Positions 1 through 58,400 of a stretch of 64,000 bases of DNA are shown piece after piece (within the stretch, counting starts at the first letter, position 1; the number at the start of each line of letters is the position of its first letter). Made by a program: the position numbers and the translations under genes. Origin of the DNA: an uncultured Thermoplasmatales archaeon (GTDB lineage: Archaea; Thermoplasmatota; E2; DHVEG-1); NCBI GenBank assembly GCA_964638155.1, contig CAZWYI010000002.1:5727-69726 (forward strand), written 5' to 3'. Below the pieces are notes generated by a model. That model saw only the letters and a list, made by a program, of their open reading frames with translations, was not told the DNA's origin and made no database searches.

Positions 1-1949
1 AAACAAGAAAAAATAATGCTGTTTCAGAAGTTCTTGGAACAATTCTATTATTAGGTATTGCTGTTGCTATTTTTTCGGTTTTATATTTTATTGTTCTCTC
101 TGAGTCGTTTGAAACAAATGAATCTAATCCAACTATTTATGCGTTCATTGAAGGAAAAAACATAGTTCTCGAGCATAGAGGGGGAGATGAATTATCTGGA
201 AGTGACTATTTTTCTTATAAGATTAATGGTGTAACAAAAACCATTTTTGTGAAGGATAACTATGAAGATTATAACGTTGATAATCTATGGAATTTTGGAG
301 AAAGAATATATATTCCAATTGGGGAGTTTAATCTGGCAAATAAAAGCGTTGACATCTTCGGAGCAAAAACAGACGAAACGGAGAGTAGTATAGTATTCCA
401 AGGAATCTTAGATATTACGCCAGAAAATGATATTGGTGTTGAAGTTAGAATAGATGATTATGAACCAGAGATTTGGGATACAATACAAATATCAGTTATT
501 ATTCATAACTACAGAGGAGATATAAATGCAACAAACGTTAATATTAGCTTTAAATTACCAGAGGGATTAGAGTATATTTACCATTCATTTATCTTCGACT
601 CAGGATATGAATCATCAAACTTTTCTTACGATAATGACACGGGATATTGCATCGTTGATAAAATCAAGGTCCGTGACTCAATTACACTTTTGGTAAATGC
701 AAAGGTTACTGATGAAGGTATGTACAGAGAAAAAACTCAGCTTGCCATGATTTTAGATGGTTCAGGTAGTATAAGTGAAGATGATTGGATTCTTATGAGA
801 AATGGATTGGCAAATGCAATTGAAAATAATTCAGTTTTCCCTCATGATGGATCTGTTGAGTTAACTGTGATCCAATTTGGGGGTACTTCTCCACCGAGAG
901 CAAAATTGGAGCTTGGTGGATCGCAGATAATTACAGAATCAAATTATGAATCTATTGCAGATGATATCAGAAATATTAAACAAATGATTGAATCTGGAGG
1001 TAGTGCAACACCAACTGCCTGTGGCATCAGACTTGCAGCTGATGAATTATATAATTCTGATTTTTATAGTTCTGATAGGAGACAAATAGTAAATCTTGTA
1101 ACTGATGGTTTGGCGAATTGTAGATGGATAGAAGATACATATAATGGTACTTGGCTTGGGAACGGTTGGGTTTATGAATCAAGTCATGGGCATGATGGAA
1201 GTACTCATTCTGCAAAATCTACTAACTCTAACTGGGGTGAGTTCATCAGTAAAGATATAGATACCTCCAATGCAAATTCGATACATATAGAGTTTTATCG
1301 GTATTTGTATTATACCGAAAGCAATGATTTAAAAATCTATTTCTATGATGGAACAAACTATAATATTATAGATGATGGGCTAGGAAGCGGTAGTGGATCT
1401 AGTTGGATATTTAAAGAATTTAATTTGAATATTAATGATAATCCAGAATATTTCACTGAGGATTTTAAAATTCGTTTTGATACTTCTTTGTCAAATTGGG
1501 AACGTATATGGATAGATGATGTTTTAGTAGAAACAGAATCAAAGATTCTACTTTATGATGATTTTGAGCAAGACCACTGGAATCAAAACTGGTCTAATTT
1601 TGGTAAATTCGATTCTGAAGAACAAATTCAATATCTTCTAGATCTTCTTGATATGCAGGAAGAAGATGATGAAATTGATTCACTTGCAATAGGCCCTGGG
1701 CCTGATAAATATTGGATAAAAAACAAGATTGTATGGCCTCAGCCAGGATATGAAGCACCACCATTTAACAGTGGTTCAGGATGGTTAAGTCATATTGATT
1801 CATTTGATGAATTTGAATATGCTACATCTGAAATGTTTAGAATTCAATTTTCAAAAATTAAATCAATCGTTAAATTAAATACAATGGATACAAGAGACCC
1901 ATATAGTGATAATGATGAATATACAATAGAGATAATTCCAAAAAATTAA
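1..1949 (+). CDS. Archaeal type IV pilin-like (class III signal peptide) N-terminus fused to a large extracellular region containing a von Willebrand factor A (vWA) domain. The 5' end lies upstream of the window.
   Basis: Frame 3 is open from nt 3 with no stop. Nt 3-248 translate to TRKNNAVSEVLGTILLLGIAVAIFSVLYFIVLSESFE..., the hydrophobic N-terminal helix typical of archaeal prepilins/archaellins. The ORF-track part 249-1949 carries the MIDAS-type vWA motif ILDGSGSISEDD, a GSGSGSS linker and many N-x-S/T sequons. Confidence 0.6.
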   Translation, partial: TRKNNAVSEVLGTILLLGIAVAIFSVLYFIVLSESFETNESNPTIYAFIEGKNIVLEHRGGDELSGSDYFSYKINGVTKTIFVKDNYEDYNVDNLWNFGERIYIPIGEFNLANKSVDIFGAKTDETESSIVFQGILDITPENDIGVEVRIDDYEPEIWDTIQISVIIHNYRGDINATNVNISFKLPEGLEYIYHSFIFDSGYESSNFSYDNDTGYCIVDKIKVRDSITLLVNAKVTDEGMYREKTQLAMILDGSGSISEDDWILMRNGLANAIENNSVFPHDGSVELTVIQFGGTSPPRAKLELGGSQIITESNYESIADDIRNIKQMIESGGSATPTACGIRLAADELYNSDFYSSDRRQIVNLVTDGLANCRWIEDTYNGTWLGNGWVYESSHGHDGSTHSAKSTNSNWGEFISKDIDTSNANSIHIEFYRYLYYTESNDLKIYFYDGTNYNIIDDGLGSGSGSSWIFKEFNLNINDNPEYFTEDFKIRFDTSLSNWERIWIDDVLVETESKILLYDDFEQDHWNQNWSNFGKFDSEEQIQYLLDLLDMQEEDDEIDSLAIGPGPDKYWIKNKIVWPQPGYEAPPFNSGSGWLSHIDSFDEFEYATSEMFRIQFSKIKSIVKLNTMDTRDPYSDNDEYTIEIIPKN

Positions 1950-1962
1950 TTTTTTTTTTTTT
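1950..1962 (+). terminator. Oligo-T tract (T13) immediately after the stop of the pilin/vWA gene; an archaeal-type intrinsic terminator. It overlaps the stop of the convergent minus-strand gene.
   Basis: taa at 1947-1949 is followed by 13 consecutive T. Archaeal termination typically uses oligo-T. Confidence 0.5.
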
Positions 1963-2542
1963 ATTCAATTTTAATTACTTTATCACAAAGTTGAGCTATC
2001 TCTGCTCTTACTTCGCGGTTTGTCCTATCAGTTAAAGAAATCATGATTCCACCGATAGCATTGATCCTCATTCTTGTAAAAATACTGTGCATAAAACGAG
2101 CAAAAACGTATGGTTCATTATGAATAAGCATTGTTGTTATAGAATCAATAAAAACAAATTTTTTCCCATCTAATTTTTTTATATGCTTATTAATTGAAAG
2201 AGAAATATCAGTTAATGAAGAAGCATTTTTTATAAACATAACATTATCTGCAGGCTCATCTGCGTTTTGATTTCTTGATATCAAATCAAGAATGTATACC
2301 TTTTGTGTATTGATTTTATTTCTTTGATAGTTGGCAATTAAATTTACATATGGTCTATTTGCAGAAACAATTATTCCATAATCATTTTGTTTTGTCAAAA
2401 ATTTTACAACCGCCATTGAAACTTCAGAGATATTTTCAGCACTTGTTTCAACTAGAACAATAAAATCTTTAGGAATATTATTTAATTCTTTATCTAATTT
2501 TTTTATATCAACCATTAAATCACTATGTAACAACTGAGCCAA
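1961..2542 (-). CDS. KaiC/RecA-fold domain protein lacking a Walker A P-loop (degenerate KaiC-like paralog, possibly a DUF257-like family).
   Basis: The C-terminal half (KKFVFIDSITTM...IGGIMISLTDR) mirrors the KaiC/RadA Walker-B/strand region. The N-terminal region, where GxxxxGKT/S should sit, reads DFIVLVETSAENISE with no P-loop. It is a paralog of the adjacent 207-aa protein. Confidence 0.45.
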   Translation of the reverse strand: MAQLLHSDLMVDIKKLDKELNNIPKDFIVLVETSAENISEVSMAVVKFLTKQNDYGIIVSANRPYVNLIANYQRNKINTQKVYILDLISRNQNADEPADNVMFIKNASSLTDISLSINKHIKKLDGKKFVFIDSITTMLIHNEPYVFARFMHSIFTRMRINAIGGIMISLTDRTNREVRAEIAQLCDKVIKIE

Positions 2543-2621
2543 TTTTTTACAATATATAAGTAATTTATTAACTTATCTATATAAAAATCCTTTGGTCAAT
2601 ATCTGTTTAAACACCTAAAAA

Positions 2622-3245
2622 TTAAGTAAAAACAGTGTTTTTTGTTAAATCATGAGAATAACTATCTTTAGGATTTGAGGTGTCAATAATTCCATCAGCA
2701 TAAGAAATAAAACTATTTACAATATTTTTTTTAGAAAGCTCCTTAGCAACATTTACCACAAAAAGCGTGTTTCCAAATTTTTTCTTGCTTATTTCATCTA
2801 AAATTTTTTTTGTAAAGTCGTCTAACCATATATCTTGATTACAAAGAGCCATTGTGTTTAATGAATCAATAAAAACAAATTTTTTATCTCCCTTTATTTT
2901 TTTAATTGATCTTAATATCTCCTCATACAGCTTTTCAAGATTTTTTTTATTGGAATAATCCAAAAATAAAATATTTTTTTTATCCAAATTATTTTTTCCT
3001 ATCCAATATATAAGGTTTTTTAAAGGTCTTTGAAAACTTACAAAAATTCCTCTATAATCTTTCTCTAATAAAATTTTTAGAGATATAGCATTATTCTTAG
3101 AATACAGCTCTGAAGAATGTTTAAGTAAAATAAGATTAGACTTATTGTTTTTTACATTAGTATACTCAACAATTGAACGTTTTATATTTTCTAAATTATC
3201 AAAATCATATTTAAGTTCAGACATCCCATCTGTCACCAAAAACAA
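2622..3245 (-). CDS. KaiC/RecA-fold domain protein lacking Walker A (second degenerate KaiC-like paralog).
   Basis: It shares the KKFVFIDSLNTM motif and overall architecture with the 193-aa neighbor and has no GKT/S P-loop. Confidence 0.45.
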   Translation of the reverse strand: MFLVTDGMSELKYDFDNLENIKRSIVEYTNVKNNKSNLILLKHSSELYSKNNAISLKILLEKDYRGIFVSFQRPLKNLIYWIGKNNLDKKNILFLDYSNKKNLEKLYEEILRSIKKIKGDKKFVFIDSLNTMALCNQDIWLDDFTKKILDEISKKKFGNTLFVVNVAKELSKKNIVNSFISYADGIIDTSNPKDSYSHDLTKNTVFT

Positions 3246-3304
3246 AATAATTTACACTATATTTAAAATTTCCTAATTAGATTAAATAAAAACTATAATT
3301 TATT

Positions 3305-4132
3305 TCATTTAAAGTTAAGTCCACCAAATACTTCTTGATCCGGATGAACTATTATACCTTCATCAGTTATTTGCATAGCAACAGTTTTTTTCTCATGCTT
3401 TTCCCCTCGCATTTTTAAAACTTCAATAGCTGTTTCTCTAATATTTTCCCGTCTAATATTATAAAAAACAATTACTCCATCTGCAAGAAATTCTTCTACT
3501 CCCGTGGGAGAATAAACCTCAGGCAATTGCTTAGTCTCTGTTATTAAAAGATTGGTACTTCCTACTTTTTCAAAGAATCTAAAAAGCCGCTCGATATAAA
3601 ATCTATATGATTGTTCTTTACCTCTAAAAGTTGAGGATATAGCAGTTAATGAGTCAATAACTATAAAATCAGGATGAAAACCATCTTCTTGACTAGTAAC
3701 TGAAAGAGGTTCAAGTTCCATTAAAAGAGGATCAATATCTTTTGTCATCATAGCCTGCATATCTCCTCCCATATTTTTGTTCTTATTATAATAATAAATT
3801 TCACTAGTTAGAAAACGCTTTATTTTTAAATTACCTGATTTAATTAATTTTTCCGGATTCCATCCAAAATCCTTCATATGTTCAATAAGGTTATCTTTTG
3901 ATTCTTCAAAACTCATATAATAACATTTTTTACCCTTAGCTGCCTGATGTGCAAGTGTTTGGAGACAAAATATAGTTTTACCTGCACCTGTTCCACCTGC
4001 AATAACGATAGGTGCACCTTTTGGAATGCCATGTTTAAAAAGCTTGTCAAAACCAGGTACACCGGTTTTAATATATTCTTTTTTATTTTCTTTATTTTTA
4101 GCCATATTATTTATCTCCATCGGCCCTAACAA
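3305..4132 (-). CDS. KaiC/RadA-like RecA-superfamily ATPase with intact Walker A and B. The start is probably the internal Met MAKNKENKK (~nt 4105).
   Basis: Walker A VIAGGTGAGKTIFCLQ, Walker B-like FIVIDSLTAI, and the KaiC-type C-terminal region ETAIEVLKMRGEKHEKK. Confidence 0.7.
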   Translation of the reverse strand: MLGPMEINNMAKNKENKKEYIKTGVPGFDKLFKHGIPKGAPIVIAGGTGAGKTIFCLQTLAHQAAKGKKCYYMSFEESKDNLIEHMKDFGWNPEKLIKSGNLKIKRFLTSEIYYYNKNKNMGGDMQAMMTKDIDPLLMELEPLSVTSQEDGFHPDFIVIDSLTAISSTFRGKEQSYRFYIERLFRFFEKVGSTNLLITETKQLPEVYSPTGVEEFLADGVIVFYNIRRENIRETAIEVLKMRGEKHEKKTVAMQITDEGIIVHPDQEVFGGLNFK

Positions 4133-4238: not shown

Positions 4239-4406
4239 ATGGCAGTAACTATTGATAAGGAAAAATGTACAGCATGCGGTGCTTGTGTCGATGTATGTCC
4301 AGTTGATGCAATAAAAATAGAAGATAAAGCAGTAGTAGATGAAGAAACATGTATTGATTGTGGAACCTGCGTTGATGAGTGTCCCGTAGAAGCTATTTCT
4401 TTATAA
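4239..4406 (+). CDS. 2x[4Fe-4S] ferredoxin (55 aa); not in the ORF track because it is under 60 aa.
   Basis: ATG at 4239 translates to MAVTIDKEKCTACGACVDVCPVDAIKIEDKAVVDEETCIDCGTCVDECPVEAISL* with two CxxCxxCxxxCP motifs. A TATA-like tttatttaaa lies ~50 nt upstream. Confidence 0.75.
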   Translation: MAVTIDKEKCTACGACVDVCPVDAIKIEDKAVVDEETCIDCGTCVDECPVEAISL

Positions 4407-10163: not shown

Positions 10164-11077
10164 TCAAGGTCTCGGCAGAAGACCAACGGTGTCAACTAAT
10201 TTTGGAATAATATCTTCCCAGAAAAGAGCGGTAATGTGGATTCCGTGAACCCCTCTAATCTTTTTTATTTCCTCAATTAGTTCTACAGCTATGTTAAAAC
10301 CTTCTTTTTTCTGATCCATTGTTTTTACCATACGATTATGATACTCATCTGGTATATCAACACCTGGAACAAAAAACTTCATCCTTTCAGTCATCTTTAG
10401 AGATTTTAGAGGAGTAATACCTGCTAAAATAGAAACTTTTTTGTCAAGGCCTCTGGAGCATACTTCATCCATAAATTCTTTGAATCTATCCAGATTATAA
10501 ACACTTTGAGTTTGAATAAAATCAGCTCCAGCCTCTATTTTTTTTCAAGTCTTTCAATTCTAAAATCAAAAGGCTCAGCAAAAGGGTTACAGGCTGCACC
10601 AATAAAAATAGGTGGAGCACCTGATAAAATTTTATCTCCACTTAGAAAAAATTCTTTATCTCTCATATTTTTAACTATATTTATAAGTTGAATAGAATCC
10701 AGATCATAAACACCTTTTGCATCAGGATGATTTCCAAAAGACTGATGATCACCTGATATAAAAAGAATATTTCTAATCCCACAGGATGCAGCACCAAGAA
10801 CATCACTTTGAAGGGCAATCCGATTTCTATCCCTACAACTCAACTGCATAATAGGTTCTAAACCCATTTTTTGAAGAATAACACTTCCCCCCATGCTAGA
10901 AAGTCTTACAACTGCAGTTTGATTATCGGTAATATTAAAAGCATCAGCATAGCCTCTTAAAATTACTGCCTTATCTTTTATTTTGTCTGGATTACAACCT
11001 TTTGGAGGGCCAATCTCTGCAGTTACAACAAATTTTTTTTCTGAAAGTAATTTCTCTAGATTACTTTTGTAATTCAT
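10164..11077 (-). pseudogene. metF: Methylenetetrahydrofolate reductase (MetF family, acetogen/archaeal type). It is split into two ORFs (10535-11077 and 10164-10472) by a -1 frameshift in an A8/T8 homopolymer at 10538-10545.
   Basis: The upstream ORF ends …NPFAEPFDFRIERLEKK*. Adding one A to the A8 run continues the frame as …IEAGADFIQTQSVYNLDRFKEFMDEVCSRGLDKKVSILAGITPLKS… through to the listed 102-aa ORF. This could be a homopolymer sequencing error or a true inactivation. Confidence 0.6.
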
Positions 11078-12991: not shown

Positions 12992-14551
12992 ATGTTAAAA
13001 GAATCTTCTAAATTTGATAAAGAAAATAAAAATTTCTCTTCTGATCGTGATAGATATAAAACCTTATTTGAGTCAATAAATGCTGCTGCATTTATTACTT
13101 CTCTTGATGGAAAAATAATTGAAGCTAATCTAAAATCTTGTGATTTACTAGGTTATGGCTGGGAAGAACTTAAAAAAATCTCGTTTAAAGATATTTTTCC
13201 AAAGAATGTAAAATGGGATATTTTAATGGAAGAAATCACCTCAAAAGGAGGTATCAACTTTGAAACAAAAAACAAAAGAAAAGACGGAACAATCTTTCCT
13301 GTAGCAATAGATACATCTCTTTTTGTTTTAGAAAAAAAACCAGTGATGCTTGCACTTATCTGGGATATTACGGAGAGAAAAACGGCAGAGGAAAAATTAA
13401 AGGAATCAGAAGAAAAATATCGAAGTATTTTTGAAAATAGTGCTGTAGCAATTATGCTTACTGATAAAAATGAAAAAATAATTTCTTGGAATAATTACGC
13501 CGAAAAAATGCTTGATATGAAAAAGGAAGATTTAGAGTTTAAACCTGTGAAATCCTTGTATCCGGAAGAGGAATGGGAAAAAATTCGGTCTCAAGATATA
13601 AGAAAGAAAGGTATGCAGCATCATCTTGAGACAAAGATGTATAAAAAAGATGGAAGACTTTTAGATGTTAATATATCAATTAGCGTATTTAAAGATAAAA
13701 AAGGAAAAATTACTGGTAGTGTAGGGATAATAAAAGATATATCTGAGCAAAAAAAAGCAGAAATAAAACTAAGAGAAAGCGAAGAAAAGTACCAAGGTCT
13801 TTTTGAATCTACAACTGATGGCATGCTAGTTTTAGATGGTCGAGGTGAAATAAAAGACATAAACAGTAAAGCAATTGAAATATTTGGAAAAAACAAAGAA
13901 AAAATGATTGGAAATAATTTTTTAAGTATGGGCCTATTGACACCGAAAGGTCTGTCTATTGTTGTAAAACAGTTCCATGATTTATTATCAAATAATAAAT
14001 CTACTAGTAGTGAAACAGAAATAATAGATAAGAATAATAAAAATCTAAATGTTGAACTTACTTCTTTTTTCTTATCTAAAAAACAAAGTGAATTAGATAA
14101 CTTTGTTTTAGTTATAAGAGATATAAATGATCGAAAAAAAACAGAGATAAAGCTAGCTAGAGAACACGAACTACTTCAAACACTTATGAACAATCTTCCA
14201 GATCCAGTATATTTTAAGGATTATGACAATAAATTTGTACTGGTAAATAAAGCAATGGCTGCAAATAATGATACAAAACCTGAAGAGATGATAGGTAAAA
14301 CAGATTTTGATTATTTATCACCTGAAAAGGCTCAAAAAGAATTCAAAGAAGACGAAGAAATAATGAAAACAGGTAAATTTGTAATTAATGAATCTAGAAA
14401 AATATTTTCTGAAAATGATGTTGAGTCATGGGTAAGTATAACTAAGATACCTCGTTTTGATCAAGAAGGAGATATAATTGGTATGATGAGTATAAAAAGA
14501 GATATTACATATTGGAAAAAACTTGAGAAATTAAAAAAAGATGAAATATAA
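12992..14551 (+). CDS. Multi-PAS-domain sensor protein without a recognisable output domain.
   Basis: At least three PAS repeats, each preceded by a coiled linker (TERKTAEEKLKESEEKYRSIFENS, EQKKAEIKLRESEEKYQGLFEST, DRKKTEIKLAREHELLQTLMNNL). No HisKA/HATPase_c or GGDEF domain is seen. Confidence 0.6.
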   Translation: MLKESSKFDKENKNFSSDRDRYKTLFESINAAAFITSLDGKIIEANLKSCDLLGYGWEELKKISFKDIFPKNVKWDILMEEITSKGGINFETKNKRKDGTIFPVAIDTSLFVLEKKPVMLALIWDITERKTAEEKLKESEEKYRSIFENSAVAIMLTDKNEKIISWNNYAEKMLDMKKEDLEFKPVKSLYPEEEWEKIRSQDIRKKGMQHHLETKMYKKDGRLLDVNISISVFKDKKGKITGSVGIIKDISEQKKAEIKLRESEEKYQGLFESTTDGMLVLDGRGEIKDINSKAIEIFGKNKEKMIGNNFLSMGLLTPKGLSIVVKQFHDLLSNNKSTSSETEIIDKNNKNLNVELTSFFLSKKQSELDNFVLVIRDINDRKKTEIKLAREHELLQTLMNNLPDPVYFKDYDNKFVLVNKAMAANNDTKPEEMIGKTDFDYLSPEKAQKEFKEDEEIMKTGKFVINESRKIFSENDVESWVSITKIPRFDQEGDIIGMMSIKRDITYWKKLEKLKKDEI

Positions 14552-15993: not shown

Positions 15994-18879
15994 ATGAGGA
16001 ATATAATACAGAAAACAATAGTGATGATTCTAATCATTTTTTTAATACTTGTGAGTTTGAACATATCTAAAAGTAAAGAAAGTACAATATTGAGAAAAAA
16101 TACAATTACAGAAAAAAATTTTGATATTGACATCAATCAAAATAAAAAAATAGCCCCTATTGGTCAAGAATATATTTCTGGAGAGTTAATTGTAAAAATA
16201 AAATCTGATTTACCTATTGAAGATACTTCATCTTTTAATGGGCAGAGAAAATTAGGTATTTTTACATTAGATATATTGAATAGCAAAAATAATGTATTGT
16301 CTATTGAGAATGTTTTTAAGAATAAAGAAAATCAAATATCTATTTCAAAAGAATTTGATAATATCTATAAATTCACTTTTCAAAAAAATATGAATATTTT
16401 TTCAATCGCCAAAAAATATGAAAAAAATCCAAATATAATATATGCTGAACCTAACTATATTCATCACTTTTGTAATGTTCCAAATGATCCATATTTTAGT
16501 CAACAGTGGTCTTTAAATCAATTAAGTGACCATGATATTGATGGATCTGAAGCATGGGATATTGAAACAGGTAGATCTAATGTTACAATAGCAATTATTG
16601 ATATGGGTGTAGATTATAATCATCCAGATTTAAAGAATAATATATGGGTTAATGAAAATGAAATACCCAATAATGGTATAGATGATGACGAAAATGGATT
16701 TATTGATGATGTCAATGGTTGGGATTTTTATACAAATACAAATAATCCAATCGATTTAGGTGGTCATGGGACATTATGTGCAGGTATTGCATCTTCAGTT
16801 ACAAATAACAACATAGGTATAGCAGGTGTTAGTTGGAACTCTAAAATTATGCCTTTAAAAGTTCACTCTTTACCTATAAGTACTATCGAACAGGAAGCAA
16901 GAGCAATTATTTATGCAGCTGATAACGGTGCAGATATAATTAGCATGAGCTTTGGTGGATTTTATGATTCAAAGGTTTTGCGGGATGCTGTAAATTATGC
17001 TTATTCTAAAGGTGTTTTTCTAGTAGCTGCTGCAGGAAATAACAATCATAACAATAAATTTTATCCAGCAGCCTTTGACAATGTTTTTTCGGTTGCTGCT
17101 ACAGATGAAAATGATAAAAAAGCAGATTTTTCGAATTACGGTTCGTGGATAGATGTTGCAGCACCAGGAGTAAATATACTATCACTAAGAGCAAACAATA
17201 CTAGCTTGGGTAATATTATAGATGATAAATATACATTTGTCAATGGCACTAGTTTTGCAGGCCCACATGTTGCAGGTTTAGTAGCATTACTTTTATCAAA
17301 AAATAATAGCTTAAATCAAAATATGATTAAAACTATGCTCTGTAATACTGCTGATAAAATTAATACTGATAAGTACATTGGTACAGGTAGAATAAATGCT
17401 TACAAAGCATTATCAAGCGATCCAGTTGAAGCAGTTTTAAAATCATTTTCAGATGGTTCTGATGTGAAGGGAGTAATACCAATCATAGGTTCAGCTTCTG
17501 GAAAAAATTTTCAGGCATACAAGGTTGAATATGGCAGAGGAAAAAATCCTAATAATTACATAGAATTAAATTTTTCAACTAATAAAGTTCATAATGATGT
17601 TTTAGCGTATTTAAATACAACTATCCTTGATGATGGATATTTTACAATTAAATTAAATGTATCATGTAACTACACTAATTATGAAGATTCAACGTATATT
17701 GTTGTTAATAATAAATACAACCGATTTACAGTAGATAATGATGGATTAGAAGCAAATTATAGCTCTATTCAAGATGCATTAGATGATGCTGGAAATAATG
17801 ACGAAATTTTTGTTTATTCTGGGGAATATAACGAATCAATTAAAATATGCAGATCGGTAAATGTAATTGGAGAAAATAAATCTAGCACGATCATTAGGCT
17901 AAAAGGTTATCCTAAATATTATTTTTTACCTTTAGTAAATATTAAAGCAGATAATGTAACAATCAATGGATTTACTATTATGGATTCAGGTTATGGGATT
18001 GTAACTTATTCATTTGCAGATCATTGTAAAATTTTTAACAACATATTTGAAGAGAATTTTATAGATATAGCGATCCAATCATCTTGTTGTCAAATATCTA
18101 ATAATAAAATGACTAATGAAATCATATTATTTTATGCTTTTAACAATTCTATATGGAATAATTCTTTATATAATGGAATTAATATTTCGATGTCAAATAA
18201 TAATATTATTCACGATAATAAAATTTCTGAAGGGTCAAAAGGAATCGAAATATGTCTTTCAAATAATAATAAAATCTATAATAACTCTATTTTTGATAAT
18301 GTGTGTGGAATAAAAATATTTGAAAACTCTAATAACAATGTGATTTATCATAACGAGTTCATAAATAATTCAGAGAATGCAAATGATTGTTCTGTCAATT
18401 CTTGGGATAATGGATATCCTTCTGGTGGAAACTACTGGGATGATTATACTGGAATAGATGGTGATAATGATGGCATTGGTGATGCTCCATATAACATTCC
18501 AGGTGGGAATAACAAAGATTTATATCCATTGATCAGCTTGGAGATTGATTTAAATCCTCCATCAATTAGTATAATGAAACCAGAAAAGGCATTTTATCTA
18601 TTTAATATGAAAATCAGAAATTATATGATTCGTAAACCTTTGATTGTTGGAAAAATAAATATTACAGCAAATGCAATAGATAAAGAATCGAAAATAAATA
18701 GAGTTGAATTTTATATTGATAAGGATTTAAAATATACTGATTGCAGTTATCCTTACAATTATTTATGGAAAAGAGATAAAATAAGATTTTTCAAACATAA
18801 ACATGACGTTAAAGTTATAGCATATGATACTGCAGGAAACAATGAAAGCAAGGAAATTAAGGTTTGGAAATTTTTATAA
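15994..18879 (+). CDS. Secreted subtilisin-like serine protease (peptidase S8) with an N-terminal signal/anchor, an I9-like propeptide, and a C-terminal right-handed parallel beta-helix repeat region.
   Basis: Catalytic-triad motifs IAIIDMGVDYNHPDL (Asp), GHGTLCAGIA (His) and GTSFAGPHVAGLVALL (Ser). Downstream are repeated NN(I/K)I…N…I motifs typical of PbH1 beta-helix repeats. Confidence 0.8.
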   Translation: MRNIIQKTIVMILIIFLILVSLNISKSKESTILRKNTITEKNFDIDINQNKKIAPIGQEYISGELIVKIKSDLPIEDTSSFNGQRKLGIFTLDILNSKNNVLSIENVFKNKENQISISKEFDNIYKFTFQKNMNIFSIAKKYEKNPNIIYAEPNYIHHFCNVPNDPYFSQQWSLNQLSDHDIDGSEAWDIETGRSNVTIAIIDMGVDYNHPDLKNNIWVNENEIPNNGIDDDENGFIDDVNGWDFYTNTNNPIDLGGHGTLCAGIASSVTNNNIGIAGVSWNSKIMPLKVHSLPISTIEQEARAIIYAADNGADIISMSFGGFYDSKVLRDAVNYAYSKGVFLVAAAGNNNHNNKFYPAAFDNVFSVAATDENDKKADFSNYGSWIDVAAPGVNILSLRANNTSLGNIIDDKYTFVNGTSFAGPHVAGLVALLLSKNNSLNQNMIKTMLCNTADKINTDKYIGTGRINAYKALSSDPVEAVLKSFSDGSDVKGVIPIIGSASGKNFQAYKVEYGRGKNPNNYIELNFSTNKVHNDVLAYLNTTILDDGYFTIKLNVSCNYTNYEDSTYIVVNNKYNRFTVDNDGLEANYSSIQDALDDAGNNDEIFVYSGEYNESIKICRSVNVIGENKSSTIIRLKGYPKYYFLPLVNIKADNVTINGFTIMDSGYGIVTYSFADHCKIFNNIFEENFIDIAIQSSCCQISNNKMTNEIILFYAFNNSIWNNSLYNGINISMSNNNIIHDNKISEGSKGIEICLSNNNKIYNNSIFDNVCGIKIFENSNNNVIYHNEFINNSENANDCSVNSWDNGYPSGGNYWDDYTGIDGDNDGIGDAPYNIPGGNNKDLYPLISLEIDLNPPSISIMKPEKAFYLFNMKIRNYMIRKPLIVGKINITANAIDKESKINRVEFYIDKDLKYTDCSYPYNYLWKRDKIRFFKHKHDVKVIAYDTAGNNESKEIKVWKFL

Positions 18880-28585: not shown

Positions 28586-28708
28586 GTCGGGGTGGCTCAG
28601 CCTGGTTAGAGCGCCTGACTCATAAGCGCAGCTTAAAGGGTTCGAAAATAGTTGCCTTTATGGCGTTAAGATATCAGGAGGTCGCGGGTTCAGATCCCGC
28701 CCCCGACA
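28586..28708 (+). tRNA. tRNA-Met (elongator; anticodon CAT) with a ~48-nt canonical-position intron (between nt 37/38, intron ~28625-28672).
   Basis: Acceptor GTCGGGG/CCCCGAC, D-arm GCTC…GAGC, anticodon stem CCTGA/TCAGG split by an insert, loop CTCATA|A, T-arm GCGGG TTCAGAT CCCGC, discriminator A. G1-C72 argues against an initiator. Confidence 0.75.
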
Positions 28709-29158
28709 TACAAACTACTGACTCACCCCCTAAAAAAATTAAATTTACTAAACAGGTTCATATCCGGGATATTTTTAATATATTAACATAAAAACAAACA
28801 AGAAATTTCCAAACTTTAGTTTGCGAGATGAATCGTATGGTAAGATAATTTAAAAAACTGTTAAGTGTTTGTTCCCATAAATGGGAAAACTATCTCATTT
28901 TTGTCATTTAAGGGCTGACAATTTCTAGTATTTCCATAAAATTGCTTAAAAGGCTTTATAAAAAAAATATTGCTAAGGAGTTTATTTTAAAAATAATATG
29001 TGTTGAAAGTAGAAATTTACACAAAGCGAAGATTTTTTAAGTAAAATATATAAATAACAAGTAACATAACTAAGAACTGGTACGAGTAAGACCTGCTGAA
29101 AGAATGACGACTCCATAGCGAGTTTAGGACGAGTAAGCAGGAATCGTGCATTATTTTT

Positions 29159-52523: not shown

Positions 52524-53171
52524 ATGAAACGGCTTAGAACAAAGTGTAAATCAATCGATGGACTTATTGGCGGAGGCATTGAACCTGGTATAATCACTAT
52601 GATTTATGGTGAATCAGGTGCTGGAAAAACAAATTTCTGCTTACAACTTTCAAAAGAAACTGCTCAAAATAAAAAAGTTGTATATGTTGATAGTGAAGGT
52701 GTTTCATATGAAAGATTAAGCCAAATCTGTGGCAAAGATTACAAAAAAATTGTAGAAAACATACTTTTTTTTAAACCAAATTCTTTTGAAGACCAGGAGA
52801 AAAGTATAGACGATATTAAAAAGATTAAAAACCCAGGAATAGTAATAATTGACACAATTAATTTATACTATAGAATGCAGCTTGAAGATGATAAAGAAAA
52901 ATCAATGAGATCTTTTTTAAGACAGATGGGAAAGTTACAGCTTTTAGCTAGAGAAAAAAATATACCTGTAGTTGTAGTAGAGCAGGTATATACTGATAAA
53001 AATGGTGAGATAAAACCTTTTACCCATAGAGAAACAGATCACTTGGTAAAAACAATGATACGTTTTGACAAAAAAGAGATAGGGATTAGAGATGCAACAG
53101 TTATGAAACATAGATCAGAGCCAGAGGGAAAAACAGCTACATTCAAAATTACAAAACACGGTTTGGAATAA
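52524..53171 (+). CDS. radB: DNA repair and recombination protein RadB.
   Basis: Walker A GESGAGKTNFCLQL, Walker B-like IVIIDTI, ~215 aa with no N-terminal HhH domain. Confidence 0.75.
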   Translation: MKRLRTKCKSIDGLIGGGIEPGIITMIYGESGAGKTNFCLQLSKETAQNKKVVYVDSEGVSYERLSQICGKDYKKIVENILFFKPNSFEDQEKSIDDIKKIKNPGIVIIDTINLYYRMQLEDDKEKSMRSFLRQMGKLQLLAREKNIPVVVVEQVYTDKNGEIKPFTHRETDHLVKTMIRFDKKEIGIRDATVMKHRSEPEGKTATFKITKHGLE

Positions 53172-55464: not shown

Positions 55465-58400
55465 ATGAATAAAAAAACATGCTTTTCTCTGAATAATGAT
55501 ACTAGAAGGGATAGGTGGGTAGAATTGCAAAGTAATCTTAATAGAAACAAATATATTTATAGAAAAATTTTATGCTGTTATGTCGTAGGAATATTGATAT
55601 TTGCATCGTTTGTTGTGATGGTTCCAAATAGTAAAGCTGATAATCCTTCAGATTTTATAATAACTTTTTATGAAGATGGTGGAAGTTTCACCGAATCTTC
55701 TAAGTTTGATGTTGGTGATGTTGTTTTTGTAAACATTACGTTAGATGGTCTCTCAGGCGATCCAGTGGGATCTGAACCATATTGTTTGTTTGTCAAAAAT
55801 AATGATACCACTGAAAGTATATATTTCCCTGTTTGGGATAATGATACATCTGGCCCATGGGATGAAGAAAATCAGGATGATGATGGATCTTACTGGGGCT
55901 ATTTTAATTTAACAGATTCAGAAGACTCACATCCACCTTCAGGTCCCGGAGATGCAGCTGTATTAAATTGTTCCGCTGGTGATACTATTTATCTATATGA
56001 AGATAATGGAGTTGGACCAACAAATCCCCTCTGGGATGATGATTTAGATGTTGCTTCTACTGAAATTATAATAGATAGTGATAGTGGAAATGAACAGAAT
56101 TCTGAACCTGATATAAGCTCACCAAATCCCTCCAATAATTCTATCGATGTCTCTATAGATCTTTCTACTCTTAATGTTACAATTGAAGATCCTGAAGGCG
56201 ATTATTTTAATTGGAGTATTGAAACAAGTCCATATATTGGTGGCAGCTCATCATCAGATGATAATAATGGAACCTGCACCTGTGGTGTTGGTGGACTAAA
56301 TTATAATACAACATATTATTGGTTTGTAAATTGTACTGATTCCGGTAGTGGAAATTGGGAAAATGAAACTTTTTCTTTTACAACAATTGCAGATGATCCT
56401 GGTAGTAGTGGCAATAACTCTCCGATTGTTACAGATCCAGATCCAACTAATGAGTCAACTATTTCTGCAGATTCGTTATCTTCACTGAATATTTCAATTA
56501 GTGATCCTGAAGGGGATAGCATTGATTGGAGCATAGAAACAAGCCCATATATTGGTGATAATAGTGCAACTAACGATGTTAATGGTACAAAAACGAGTGA
56601 GATAACTGAGCAATTAACCCCTGGCTCGACGTATTATTGGTTTGTAAATTGTACTGATTCTGGCAGTGGTAATTGGACAAAGAGGAGTTACTGGTTTACA
56701 ATCTCTTCATCTCCGCCAGGTGGAGATATGTATAATGTTTCAGGTTATGTTTTAGATAGTGTGGATGAAGGACCAATACAGGGTGCTGATTTAACGATAA
56801 CTGACAACGCATCTTTTTCAAATAATGCTGTAACAGATAGTCAGGGGTATTATATGTTCCAAAATGTACCTGCTGGTGATTACGATGTAGTTGCATCAAT
56901 GTCTGGCGATCCAGGTTTCGGTCCAATCTGGCAGTCCATTACGGTGTTTGATCATGATGAAACTAACTTTAATTTTACAGTTTCCTTTGACGGTGGTGGA
57001 GATGATGGTAGTGATGATCCGGGGCCTGGTGAAGATGGTATAGAGGGTGAAGTAAATATTAGCGTGGTCGGAACCGTTTATATGGAAAGATCAATGGTTA
57101 CAATTTCTGGTGTCAATCTTACTGCATATCCAAAAAATGATGATAGTAACATTTTGAATAACACGTTTACAGATCAAAACGGACAATTTCAACTAAATTT
57201 TGTAATAAATCAGTCAATTAGTGAAAATTCCAGTGAAATCTGCTTCATGTTTTCTGCTGAAGGTTATGAAACAAACGATGATTGGCAAATGGGTCTTTAT
57301 GATCTCATGGATATGATGGAGCAAGAAGGACAAGTCATGATGGATATGGTAGAACTTGCAAAGATTTGGAATACAACTGCATTTGTAAACGGTACAATTC
57401 TTGATTTAGATACAAATAATCCTATTTCAAATGTTACAGTTGAATTAGAAGGCCCTAACTATTTTGAAAATAGAACTCAAACTGATAATAATGGAAATTT
57501 TTCAGTTGGCTCAATCACAGGGGATGAAAGTGATTTTGAATTAATGTTTGATAAAGAAGGATACTTTACAAATGCATCTGAAATTAACGATGATGGTACT
57601 ATTTCTGCAGGAGATTATATCGAGTTAGGAACTATTTATATGGAGGTAAAACCATCATCTAATGCGTTTATTGAGGGTTATCTAAAATCTGAGGGTAATC
57701 CTATAGAAGATGCAAATCTTATGTTATATGATCCAGCTCATCCATATGAATCTGAAAAAGGTTTTTTTGATATGCCGACTACAGACTCAAATGGCTATTA
57801 TAATATTTCTACCTACGCTGGAGAATTCTATCTAATAACACTTGCTAACATAGTTGGCGAGTCTAGACACGGACCTCCGCTTGGTATTGGTGGATATGTA
57901 AACCAAGTAATTGATGTGGATGTTTCAGCTAATGAAACAGTAGAACAAAATATTAATCTTACAGCTTCAAATCCTGATAATATAAACGTTAATCTAAATA
58001 TCATCAATAGTACTTTTTCATACGCAAGGATTTCAAGAACTATATCATGTAACCCAAGAATAGTTAGATTAATGACAGATGCAAACTTAGATGGGGTAAT
58101 AGATTCTGATGAGGGAGATACATTTAAAAGTTCCATCAACTCATCTTTTACTTCAAGTGGTTATTTTGATGAAGATATGCTTCTAGCAAGAATTCCATTT
58201 ACTTACTATAAACTAGATGGGACATACATTCAACCGCAACAAATCAATGTTGATATAACTGGAATAATCGGAGATGCTGATTCAAGTGATCTGATAACAG
58301 TTTATGTTAATATGTCTATGGTTCCAAGTGGCCAAGTTGACTCAAATGAGTCATTACATAGTATTAGACTTGAAGGATACTATGGTAATCCAGCATTTAA

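What the first reader, a model, noticed from the sequence alone, without database searches (positions are those of the whole stretch)
1..4132. A pilin-like/vWA surface protein convergent on a trio of KaiC-fold proteins, two of which lack P-loops
Gene 1 joins an archaeal type-IV-pilin-like N-terminal helix to a MIDAS-containing vWA domain. This architecture is typical of a pilus tip or minor-pilin adhesin. Directly opposite lie three consecutive KaiC/RecA-fold genes: one with intact Walker A/B, and two ~200-aa paralogs that keep the KaiC C-terminal core (KKFVFIDS(I/L)(T/N)TM) but have lost the P-loop. KaiC-like ATPases (ArlH/FlaH) are known regulators of archaeal type IV filament machines. Pseudo-ATPase paralogs stacked next to an active one suggest a heteromeric regulatory ATPase. 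The trio is divergently paired with a small ferredoxin. This is a candidate undescribed surface-filament regulatory module.
Basis: partly seen in the sequence, partly recalled or inferred. Interest (0 to 1): 0.6.

Follow-up and report, generated by a model that had tools for sequence, protein, structure and literature searches.

The report
KaiC trio beside pilus operon
An uncultured archaeon encodes one working KaiC-type ATPase and two conserved P-loop-less copies of it, tail-to-tail with the last gene of a type IV pilus operon (a pilin carrying a vWA adhesion domain); this is probably a pilus-linked signalling module, and a variant of a kind already predicted in the literature.

Summary

In relatives, the psK2-psK1 pair is the constant core and always sits with KaiC-domain genes. 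Often these include a double-domain KaiC fused to PAS/GAF/histidine-kinase modules. psK1::KaiC fusion proteins also exist. In Thermoplasmatota the module repeatedly abuts the 3' end of a PilB-PilC-pilin-DUF7289-(gene 1) operon. In DPANN archaea it usually does not.

The ferredoxin pairing is not conserved. The link between KaiC and type IV pili, and "inactivated KaiC" domains, are published ideas, so "undescribed" is too strong. A heteromeric complex and control of the pilus are inferences.

Verdict: a real feature, a new variant of a known kind, of moderate interest.

The parts
1..1949 (+). Gene 1 (g1). A modular pilin-like surface protein; 648 aa are visible and about 11 N-terminal codons lie outside the window. 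In orthologous loci it is the last gene of a type IV pilus operon.
   Evidence: Pilin_N, DUF11, VWA. In some searches orthologs follow PilB-PilC-pilin-DUF7289 in L013, L017, L043, L051, L054, L057 and L061.
15..209 (+). Pilin_N domain of g1. It holds the class III signal-peptide-like cleavage motif and hydrophobic helix (KNNA|VSEVLGTILLLGIAVAIFSVLYFIVL).
   Evidence: PF07790, residues 5-69, 35.3 bits; complete N-termini in the L017 and L013 orthologs.
429..734 (+). DUF11 (beta-sandwich) domain of g1.
   Evidence: PF01345, residues 143-244, 41.3 bits.
744..1772 (+). vWA domain of g1 with MIDAS (DGSGS at 756..770, T at 1008..1010, D at 1104..1106). It is interrupted at about 1185..1601 by an inserted domain of roughly 140 aa (motif 'SNANSIHIEF...RIWIDDV').
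   Evidence: VWA, residues 248-371. In one search the insert is absent from the L013 ortholog and lies at a different site in L017; the MIDAS residues are invariant.
1950..1962 (+). T13 run that fills the 11-nt gap between the convergent stop codons and overlaps the psK1 stop codon. Likely an oligo-T termination signal for the pilus operon (inferred).
   Evidence: read directly from the sequence.
1961..2515 (-). psK1. A 184-aa KaiC-fold protein with no Walker A (ETSAENISEV in its place) and no catalytic Glu (SANRPY). The Walker B Asp is kept (FVFIDS). The family is very highly conserved.
2622..3224 (-). psK2. A 200-aa paralog of psK1, also KaiC-fold and without a P-loop (KHSSELYSKN; SFQRPL). 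It evolves faster than psK1, and this lineage has an internal deletion and a C-terminal tail.
3305..4105 (-). Single-domain KaiC-family ATPase of 266 aa, with intact Walker A (GGTGAGKT, 3974..3997), catalytic EE and Walker B.
4239..4406 (+). 2x[4Fe-4S] ferredoxin, a divergent neighbour. It is listed because the finding names it, but it is judged not to belong to the module.
   Evidence: the adjacency is not conserved, and the gene travels with MntR and FeoAB.

Best explanation
The three minus-strand genes encode a KaiC-family signalling module: one catalytically competent single-domain KaiC and two dedicated, catalytically dead paralogs (psK2 and psK1, both 'iKaiC').

Shown:
- All three have the KaiC/RecA fold.
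- The two short proteins lack Walker A and the catalytic Glu throughout their families, yet they are under purifying selection.
- psK2-psK1 is a conserved adjacent pair that always travels with KaiC-domain genes.
- psK1 is found fused to the short KaiC in some genomes.
- In Thermoplasmatota the module sits tail-to-tail with a PilB-PilC-pilin-DUF7289-(g1) type IV pilus operon. Its terminal gene here is a pilin carrying a MIDAS vWA domain.

Inferred:
- The iKaiC proteins join the KaiC in a hetero-oligomer. This could be a mixed RecA-type ring as in Elp4/5/6, or a dead ring or adaptor stacked on the KaiC hexamer, like the CI and CII rings of double-domain KaiC.
- They tune its ATP binding or autophosphorylation state, or read that state out.
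- The output acts on the neighbouring pilus system. It could act directly on the PilB-type assembly ATPase, as ArlH does on ArlI, or on pilus gene expression, as CirA does for arl genes.
- g1 itself is most likely a minor or tip pilin that presents a metal-dependent vWA adhesin on the filament.
For: Fold and loss of motifs:
- Pfam KaiC matches.
- AlphaFold models: pLDDT 90.6 for psK1 and 76.9 for psK2.
- A Walker A motif occurs in 0 of 56 psK1 and 0 of 57 psK2 sequences, against 13 of 14 short KaiCs.

Paralogy: hhalign 99.7%, E 3.6e-27.

Selection: dN/dS is about 0.04 for psK1, 0.2 for psK2 and 0.05 for KaiC. The psK1 profile finds 2051 50%-identity clusters.

Pairing and KaiC company:
- A psK2-type gene lies directly upstream of psK1, often overlapping it, in about 25 of 28 distinct genome loci. 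KaiC-domain genes are adjacent.
- The large upstream genes are double-domain KaiCs with or without PAS/GAF/HisKA-HATPase.
- psK1::KaiC fusions occur in L030 and P0142.

Pilus linkage:
- A convergent type IV pilus operon lies next to the module in L007-9, L013, L017, L019, L023, L024 and L033. L016, L022 and L025 show it partially.
- Seen from the g1 side, the same holds in L043, L048, L051, L054, L055, L057, L061, L079, L081, L088 and L089.
- Independent arrangements keep the proximity: L021 is divergent, and L032 and L036 are DPANN loci.
- The other flank (Fdx-MntR-FeoB) is already lost at 73% psK1 identity (L011).

Precedents from the literature:
- KaiC-family ATPases are associated with archaeal type IV pilus loci (PMC4858521).
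- ArlH binds ATP, autophosphorylates and modulates ArlI (PMC8978795).
- CirA is a KaiC-like gene on the opposite strand next to the arl genes, and it represses their expression (PMC10983859).
Against: - The module and the pilus operon are convergent, so they are not co-transcribed.
- About two thirds of g1-type pilus operons in metagenomes have no adjacent KaiC module.
- Most DPANN copies of the module have no pilus genes within 10 kb.
- The adjacency could therefore be clade-level synteny.
- No hetero-oligomer was modelled or measured.
- The pilus operon upstream of g1 is not visible in this window and is inferred from orthologous loci.
- This lineage lacks the sensor-bearing double-domain KaiC next to the pair, and none is present in the 64 kb.
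- L013, L057 and L061 have only KaiC plus psK1, so psK2 is dispensable in some lineages.
- The KaiC fails the ArlH/FlaH family cut-offs.
Confidence: 0.5

Rival explanations
1. The trio is a general KaiC-based signalling hub with no specific tie to the pilus. The iKaiC pair acts as the partner or adaptor of KaiC ATPases, filling the role KaiB-like or DEATH-like partners play elsewhere. Its position next to the pilus operon is inherited gene order within one archaeal clade.
For: - The constant partners of the pair are KaiC-domain genes, not pilus genes.
- Most DPANN loci have no pilus genes within 10 kb.
- About two thirds of g1-type operons lack the module.
- The genes are convergent, not operonic.
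- Several genomes carry multiple module copies (L016, L018, L027, L033).
Against: - Adjacency to the pilus operon persists down to about 48% psK1 identity, while the opposite flank changes by 73% identity.
- The adjacency survives rearrangements: KaiC upstream or downstream of the pair, g1 present or absent, and a divergent layout in L021.
- It reappears in two DPANN loci (L032, L036).
- Published genomics already links KaiC families to type IV pilus loci (PMC4858521).
Confidence: 0.35
2. The three RecA-fold paralogs form an Elp4/5/6-like or Rad51-paralog-like hetero-oligomer that acts on nucleic acids (tRNA, or DNA repair and recombination) and has nothing to do with signalling or pili.
For: - Weak Pfam matches of both short proteins to Elongator Iki1/Elp5 and Elp6 (E 0.002-0.01).
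Against: - The best sequence and structure matches are to KaiC-like proteins.
- The neighbours are double-domain KaiCs with PAS, GAF and histidine-kinase modules, which are typical signalling parts.
- A separate RadB-like gene is present elsewhere in the window (52524..53171).
- No nucleic-acid-handling genes accompany the module.
Confidence: 0.05
3. The two short genes are decaying remnants of KaiC duplications and have no function.
For: - Loss of Walker A and the catalytic Glu.
- The window's psK2 is divergent, with an internal deletion.
Against: - psK1 is as constrained as the active KaiC (dN/dS about 0.04).
- 41 residues are invariant across 19 orthologs.
- Length is conserved at 183-185 aa in hundreds of sequences.
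- The psK1 profile finds 2051 related clusters.
- psK2 is also under purifying selection (about 0.2), and the pair is conserved across phyla.
Confidence: 0.02

Closest known systems
KaiC-family ATPases associated with archaeal type IV pilus loci (Makarova, Koonin & Albers 2016, PMC4858521) and 'iKaiC' inactivated KaiC-like domains (Makarova, Galperin & Koonin 2017, as cited in PMC5847659)
   Same: A KaiC-fold ATPase encoded next to a PilB/TadC-type pilus locus and predicted to be its regulator. Homologs with dead ATPase sites take part in the same networks.
   Different: - The module contains a dedicated, conserved pair of stand-alone P-loop-less paralogs of about 185-215 aa, plus a short KaiC.
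- It occurs in uncultured Thermoplasmatota and DPANN.
- I could not read the 2017 paper, so I cannot say whether this particular pair was catalogued there.
- No held paper mentions DUF7504 or DUF7090.
ArlH/FlaH of the archaellum
   Different: - The window's KaiC scores 43.5 bits against the ArlH cut-off of 215, and 50.9 against 194 for the FlaH subfamily.
- It is not inside the filament operon but convergent to it.
- The neighbouring operon encodes adhesion-type pilins (Pilin_N, DUF7289), a vWA pilin and a PilB3_C-type ATPase; none of its genes was called as an archaellum component.
- ArlH has no dead paralogs as partners.
CirA of Haloferax volcanii
   Same: A KaiC-like gene placed next to filament (arl) genes on the opposite strand. 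It acts as a negative regulator of their expression (PMC10983859).
   Different: - CirA is a single active KaiC-like protein in a haloarchaeon and regulates archaella, not pili.
- No iKaiC partners are described for it.
- Orthology to the window's KaiC was not tested.
Elongator Elp4/5/6 subcomplex
   Different: - Elp4/5/6 is eukaryotic and binds tRNA.
- Here one of the three paralogs keeps a complete ATPase site.
- Assembly into a ring is untested.
Cyanobacterial KaiC
   Same: The same Pfam family and fold. In relatives, a true double-domain (CI+CII) KaiC sits directly upstream of the iKaiC pair.
   Different: - All three window proteins are single-domain.
- No kaiA or kaiB was seen among the called genes of the related loci.
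- There is no evidence of clock function.
Pfam DUF7504 (PF24336) and DUF7090 (PF23365)
   Same: psK1 scores 27.1 bits against DUF7504 (cut-off 27). At E<=1e-3, 42 of 56 family members match DUF7504 and 37 of 56 match DUF7090.
   Different: - Both are families of unknown function.
- The matches are borderline, so psK1 is at best a peripheral relative.
- The window's psK2 matches neither.
Modular type IV pilins and pilus proteins with vWA domains (bacterial TadG, cited in PMC4858521; Streptococcus sanguinis PilB from my own knowledge)
   Same: A pilin-type N-terminal helix joined to a MIDAS vWA module. In bacteria such proteins are proposed to anchor the pilus (TadG) or to mediate adhesion.
   Different: - g1 has the archaeal Pilin_N / class III type N-terminus.
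- It has an extra DUF11 domain and a further domain inserted into the vWA fold.
- Its place in the filament (tip, minor or anchor) is unknown.

Membership tests
KaiC / RecA-superfamily ATPase (Pfam PF06745) | RecA-like alpha/beta core fold | tested here: met
KaiC / RecA-superfamily ATPase (Pfam PF06745) | Score above the Pfam gathering cut-off (26.6 bits) | tested here: inconclusive
   KaiC scores 179 bits (met) and psK1 35.9-36.2 (met). The window's psK2 scores 18.2 (not met), although 40 of 57 psK2-family members match at E<=1e-3.
KaiC / RecA-superfamily ATPase (Pfam PF06745) | Walker A P-loop [AG]xxxxGK[ST] | tested here: not met
   This applies to psK1 and psK2: 0 of 56 and 0 of 57 family members carry the motif. 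The motif is met for the 266-aa KaiC (GGTGAGKT; 13 of 14 orthologs).
KaiC / RecA-superfamily ATPase (Pfam PF06745) | Catalytic glutamate(s) after strand 2, and the Walker B aspartate | tested here: inconclusive
   The KaiC has SFEES and FIVIDS. psK1 has SANRPY and psK2 has SFQRPL in place of the Glu pair, but both keep the Walker B Asp (FVFIDS).
Bona fide circadian KaiC | Two tandem KaiC domains (CI+CII) in one polypeptide, together with kaiB (and kaiA) | tested here: not met
   All three window proteins are single-domain. The 64-kb window holds no double-domain KaiC. Double-domain KaiCs occur next to the pair only in relatives.
ArlH/FlaH | NCBIfam ArlH equivalog (cut-off 215) or FlaH subfamily (cut-off 194) score | tested here: not met
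   The scores are 43.5 and 50.9 bits.
ArlH/FlaH | Encoded within an archaellum (arl) operon with ArlI, ArlJ and archaellins | tested here: not met
   The gene is convergent to, and not inside, an operon encoding a T2SSE/PilB3_C ATPase, T2SSF, Pilin_N pilins and DUF7289.
iKaiC (inactivated KaiC-like domain, Makarova 2017) | KaiC-like fold with a disrupted nucleotide-binding site, encoded together with active KaiC-like ATPases | tested here: met
   fold present, motifs lost; adjacent KaiC genes. Assignment to a specific arCOG of that paper could not be tested because the paper is not held.
Pfam DUF7504 / DUF7090 | Score at or above the gathering cut-off (27 bits each) | tested here: inconclusive
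   psK1 scores 27.1 bits (184-aa form) or 26.9 (193-aa ORF) against DUF7504, and 22.5 against DUF7090. psK2 matches neither.
Elp4/5/6-like hetero-hexameric RecA-fold ring | Three paralogous subunits assemble into one ring | not testable with these tools
   Only single-chain prediction was available. Indirect support comes from the conserved adjacency and the psK1::KaiC fusions.
Archaeal type IV pilin (Pilin_N, class III signal peptide), for g1 | Pilin_N HMM above cut-off, and a short charged leader followed by a cleavage motif and a hydrophobic helix | tested here: met
   PF07790 scores 35.3 bits against a cut-off of 25.2. 'RKNNA|VSEVLGT' plus a hydrophobic stretch is visible. Complete leaders are seen in the orthologs L017 ('MNNKRKDKA|VAEIIGT') and L013. 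Cleavage itself was not tested.
Archaeal type IV pilin (Pilin_N, class III signal peptide), for g1 | Encoded with a PilB-type ATPase and a PilC/TadC platform | tested here: inconclusive
   These genes cannot be seen in the window because the region upstream of g1 lies outside it. The feature is met in the orthologous loci L013, L017, L043, L051, L054, L057 and L061. No prepilin-peptidase motif was found in the window.
vWA domain with MIDAS, for g1 | DxSxS ... T ... D metal-ion-dependent adhesion site | tested here: met
   D252-G-S254-G-S256, T336 and D368 are invariant in three orthologs. VWA scores 35.0 bits against a cut-off of 23.8.

The most novel reading that the evidence does not exclude
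The short KaiC and its two dead paralogs form a defined hetero-oligomeric ring. This ring would be the pilus counterpart of ArlH: a post-translational switch that docks on the PilB-type assembly ATPase of a non-archaellum type IV pilus. In relatives it would be driven by a PAS/GAF/histidine-kinase-bearing double-domain KaiC. That would make it a previously uncharacterised KaiC-to-pilus signalling pathway, shared by Thermoplasmatota and some DPANN archaea, in which pseudo-ATPase subunits set the stoichiometry or read the phosphorylation state.
Probability: 0.25. Interest if true: 0.6.

Novelty: new variant of a known kind. Interest (0 to 1): 0.4.

Why it matters
KaiC-like ATPases have been proposed as the main archaea-specific signalling hubs, but almost none has a defined partner or output. 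This module offers a compact set of parts that can be tested:
- one live KaiC;
- two conserved dead paralogs;
- natural psK1::KaiC fusions;
- sensor-fused double-domain KaiCs in relatives;
- a plausible output, a type IV pilus with a vWA adhesin.

If the complex and its link to the pilus are confirmed, it would show how pseudo-ATPase subunits work in KaiC signalling. It would also show how uncultured Thermoplasmatota, and some host-attached DPANN archaea, control surface attachment. If the link is not confirmed, the module is still a large, unnamed iKaiC family (about 2000 clusters at 50% identity) that deserves a family definition.

Tried and rejected
- Exact look-up of the source contig to read upstream of g1 failed. 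psK1 is not in the position index, and MntR found only a 1.9-kb Logan contig.
- The psK1 family profile found nothing meaningful among PDB sequences. Fold comparison was needed instead.
- hhalign of the psK1 family against the short-KaiC alignment found nothing (the alignments have low diversity). psK2 against KaiC gave only a weak hit (E 0.0026), though it aligned the P-loop region correctly.
- A metagenome scan with g1 alone found no relatives. The scan with the three-sequence alignment worked.
- The afdb50 fold library was not available.
- The sigma-70 promoter scan found fewer sites than shuffled sequence and does not apply to archaea. The four terminator-like hairpins exceeded the shuffles (mean 0.6), but none lies at the 3' end of a trio gene: two follow the ferredoxin gene and two are inside coding sequence. 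Whether the trio is co-transcribed could not be assessed.
- A motif search for a prepilin peptidase (GxGD[VAIL]K) and for further class III pilin-like ORFs in the 64-kb window found none other than g1.
- Makarova et al. 2017 (mBio) could not be read by DOI or PMC id. Whether this exact pair was catalogued there remains open.

Rejected readings:
- The ferredoxin is part of the module: the adjacency is not conserved.
- The KaiC is ArlH/FlaH: it fails the family cut-offs.
- The short genes are pseudogenes: they are under strong purifying selection.

Full report
**1. What is in the sequence**

The window is AT-rich (about 30% G+C) and comes from an uncultured archaeon. It carries an intron-containing tRNA. 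The closest relatives of its genes are metagenome-assembled genomes labelled Thermoplasmatales or Thermoplasmatota.

Gene 1 (g1) runs off the window start and ends at 1949. Its visible 648 residues begin 'TRKNNAVSEVLGTILLLGIAVAIFSVLYFIVL'. Pfam finds three domains:
- Pilin_N, residues 5-69, 35.3 bits (cut-off 25.2);
- DUF11, residues 143-244, 41.3 bits;
- VWA, residues 248-371, 35.0 bits (cut-off 23.8).

The MIDAS residues (D252-G-S254-G-S256, T336, D368) are invariant in an alignment with two orthologs. The complete orthologs start 'MNNKRKDKA|VAEIIGT...' (L017) and similarly in L013. Only about 11 codons of g1 are therefore missing, and the class III-type leader and hydrophobic helix are essentially visible.

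Three genes lie on the opposite strand, and exact look-up confirms their annotated starts:
- psK1, 1961..2515, 184 aa;
- psK2, 2622..3224, 200 aa;
- KaiC, 3305..4105, 266 aa.

The convergent stop codons of g1 and psK1 are 11 nt apart. That gap is filled by a T13 run at 1950..1962.

**2. The three KaiC-fold proteins**

The 266-aa protein is an unambiguous single-domain KaiC-family ATPase (Pfam KaiC, 179 bits). Walker A (GGTGAGKT), the catalytic SFEES and Walker B (FIVIDS) are conserved in its orthologs. It is not an ArlH/FlaH ortholog: it scores 43.5 bits against the ArlH cut-off of 215, and 50.9 against the FlaH cut-off of 194.

psK1 passes the Pfam KaiC cut-off (35.9 against 26.6), but only over profile positions 36-187, which leave out the P-loop segment. 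It is borderline for DUF7504 and below cut-off for DUF7090. The window's psK2 is sub-threshold (18.2 bits), although 40 of 57 members of its family match KaiC at E<=1e-3.

The two families are clear paralogs (hhalign 99.7%, E 3.6e-27).

- psK2: PH0321 (13.3), KaiC (13.2), PH0284 (13.2), Elp6 (13.1), FlaH (12.8).

The second refutation test, that the short proteins would show no RecA-fold similarity, is also not met.

A Walker A pattern is present in 0 of 56 psK1 and 0 of 57 psK2 sequences, against 13 of 14 short KaiCs. Where KaiC has the P-loop and the SFEES motif, psK1 has the conserved 'ET(S/T)AE' and 'SANRPY', and psK2 has 'E.P.E.Y' and 'SFQRP(F/L)'. Both keep the Walker B Asp in 'KKF.F.DS'.

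These are not decaying genes:
- psK1 has 41 invariant positions in 19 orthologs and a fixed length of 183-185 aa in hundreds of sequences.
- Its profile finds 2051 clusters at 50% identity with E<=1e-3, and 1204 with E<=1e-10.
- Rough dN/dS values are about 0.04 for psK1, 0.05 for KaiC and 0.2 for psK2. dS is saturated, so these are rough.

**3. Context in relatives**

Three sets of related loci were compared:
- a scan of species-representative genomes with the psK1 alignment, which returned 33 loci from Thermoplasmatota and many DPANN lineages;
- look-ups of individual homologs, which gave further loci;
- a metagenome scan with g1 orthologs, which gave 49 more.

I called ORFs in all of them and searched them with the window and L007 proteins.

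(a) psK2-psK1 is the constant core. A psK2-type gene sits directly upstream of psK1, often overlapping it by 4 nt, in about 25 of 28 distinct genome loci that have enough upstream sequence.

(b) The pair travels with KaiC-domain genes. The ortholog of the window's short KaiC lies upstream of the pair in the window's clade (L001, L005, L007, L010, L011, L014). It lies downstream in others (L016, L019, L022-25, L033, L036). In most loci outside the window's clade, a large gene directly upstream of psK2 is a true double-domain KaiC. It is plain in DPANN (474-642 aa). In Thermoplasmatota it is fused to 2-5 PAS domains, GAF and HisKA-HATPase (807-1512 aa).

(c) Some lineages have only KaiC plus psK1 (L013, L057, L061).

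(d) L030 and P0142 encode a single polypeptide with psK1 at residues 1-184 and the short KaiC at the C-terminus. Such a fusion argues that the two proteins work together.

(e) The window itself has no double-domain KaiC in its 64 kb. A stand-alone four-PAS protein lies 9 kb away.

**4. Link to the pilus**

In L007-L009 (psK1 at least 90% identical) the trio is convergent on a five-gene operon:
- T2SSE/PilB3_C ATPase (764 aa);
- T2SSF platform protein (588 aa);
- Pilin_N protein (682 aa);
- DUF7289 protein (291 aa);
- a pilin-like protein (341 aa).

g1 orthologs are the last gene of the same operon type in L013, L017, L043, L051, L054, L057 and L061. The DUF7289-g1 pair is present in most of the g1 loci, though in some (L060, L067, L076, L078, L082, L086) DUF7289 follows g1 rather than preceding it. 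The closest complete proxies for the unseen region upstream of the window are L043 and L051, whose best g1 alignment segment is 53% identical. L051 reads PilB-PilC-pilin-DUF7289-g1, then convergent psK1-psK2-KaiC, the same order as in the window.

The tail-to-tail arrangement of module and pilus operon, with gaps of roughly 10-50 nt, recurs in Thermoplasmatota down to about 48-50% psK1 identity (L019, L023, L024, L033). Other layouts keep the proximity: L021 is divergent, and the DPANN loci L032 and L036 have PilB/PilC within 5-8 kb. The other flank behaves differently. Ferredoxin-MntR-FeoAB is shared only by the nearest relatives and is already gone at 73% psK1 identity (L011). A VIT1 gene or 3 kb of other DNA separates ferredoxin from KaiC in L007 and L010. 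The ferredoxin pairing is therefore incidental.

The link has limits. About two thirds of g1-type operons in metagenomes have no adjacent module. Most DPANN modules have no pilus genes within 10 kb. The genes are convergent, so any coupling is not through a shared transcript.

**5. How it most likely works**

Shown: there is one live and two dead KaiC-fold proteins. They are conserved as a set, always occur with KaiC ATPases, and are sometimes fused to one.

Inferred: they form a hetero-oligomer. One model is a mixed RecA-type ring, as in Elp4/5/6. The other is a dead ring or adaptor on the KaiC hexamer, imitating the CI/CII stack. In such a complex the dead subunits would shape or read the nucleotide or phosphorylation state of the live one.

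By analogy, the output is proposed to be the neighbouring pilus. ArlH binds ATP, autophosphorylates and modulates the motor ATPase ArlI (PMC8978795). CirA is a KaiC-like gene on the opposite strand beside the arl genes and represses their expression (PMC10983859).

g1 is read as a minor or tip pilin that displays a metal-dependent vWA adhesin. vWA pilus proteins such as TadG are discussed in PMC4858521. The bimodular pilin PilB of Streptococcus sanguinis is known to me but was not checked here.

I put about 0.5 on this full statement. Most of the remainder goes to the rival that the module is a general KaiC signalling hub whose position next to the pilus operon is inherited gene order.

**6. 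Comparison with what is known, and novelty**

[quoted passage not shown] Galperin et al. [quoted passage not shown] 2017. I could not read the 2017 paper. No held paper mentions DUF7504 or DUF7090.

The general ideas, KaiC next to pili and dead KaiC homologs in signalling, are therefore published. The following appear to be new in detail:
- a dedicated pair of stand-alone P-loop-less paralogs together with a short KaiC;
- its several layouts, including sensor-fused double-domain KaiCs and psK1::KaiC fusions;
- its spread through uncultured Thermoplasmatota and DPANN;
- its recurrent position against an operon that ends in a vWA pilin.

I rate it a new variant of a known kind, with interest about 0.4. 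It is a good experimental lead, not a surprise to a specialist.

Noticed in passing
window 10164..11077 (-): A methylenetetrahydrofolate-reductase-like gene is split into a 180-aa ORF (10535..11077) and a 102-aa ORF (10164..10472), with about 20 residues missing between them. The ortholog in L007 (925..1839) is an intact 304-aa protein. This is either a frameshift or stop (a pseudogene) or an assembly error.
   Followed up: partly
window 55465..64000 (+): A giant ORF of more than 2845 aa runs off the window end. It has CarboxypepD_reg, DUF4785 and transthyretin-like repeats, so it is presumably a very large surface protein.
   Followed up: partly
window 12992..14551 (+): A stand-alone 519-aa protein made of four PAS domains lies 9 kb from the trio. 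In relatives, PAS domains are fused to the double-domain KaiC that precedes the iKaiC pair, and this lineage lacks that gene. Whether the PAS protein substitutes for it is unknown.
   Followed up: no
window 744..1772 (+); L017:420-2441 (-); L013:1459-3030 (-): The same extra domain ('S.ANSI..F.YR...IWIDDV') is inserted at different points of the vWA fold. It comes after the TDG motif in the window's g1 and right after the DGSGS motif in L017, and it is absent in L013. This is an unusual case of one insert occupying two sites in orthologs.
   Followed up: partly
L030:4160-5716 (+); protein P0142: These are natural fusion proteins with a psK1-type dead KaiC domain (residues 1-184), a charged linker and the short active KaiC. 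Other relatives carry the dead domain behind other N-terminal regions, among them Glu/Lys/Arg-rich (possibly coiled-coil) stretches and parts longer than 1100 aa (P0246, P0273).
   Followed up: partly
window 28586..28708 (+) and 29080..29149 (+): Rfam finds a tRNA of 123 nt, so it contains an intron; ARAGORN missed it. About 370 nt downstream is a DUF3800-X RNA motif (57.6 bits, cut-off 38.2).
   Followed up: no
window 15994..18879 (+): A 961-aa secreted-type protein that combines a subtilase S8 domain with NosD/beta-helix and Big_7 domains.
   Followed up: no
window 52524..53171 (+): A 215-aa RadB/Rad51-like RecA-fold protein with an intact ATPase profile. It is a separate RecA-family member unrelated to the trio.
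   Followed up: no
L016, L018, L027, L033: Several genomes carry two or more copies of the double-domain KaiC plus iKaiC-pair module within 10 kb. The module has therefore been duplicated repeatedly.
   Followed up: no
L001:8563-10350 (-), L005:8587-10416 (-), L002:3343-5445 (-): In a sister clade, the gene convergent on the trio is a 520-700 aa protein with a repeat-rich central region and a Laminin_G_3 domain. It carries a Pilin_N-like segment ('EGDEIVFEHRRGE') but has no PilB/PilC genes nearby. In both complete-genome assemblies the N-terminal part of this gene is a run of N.
   Followed up: partly
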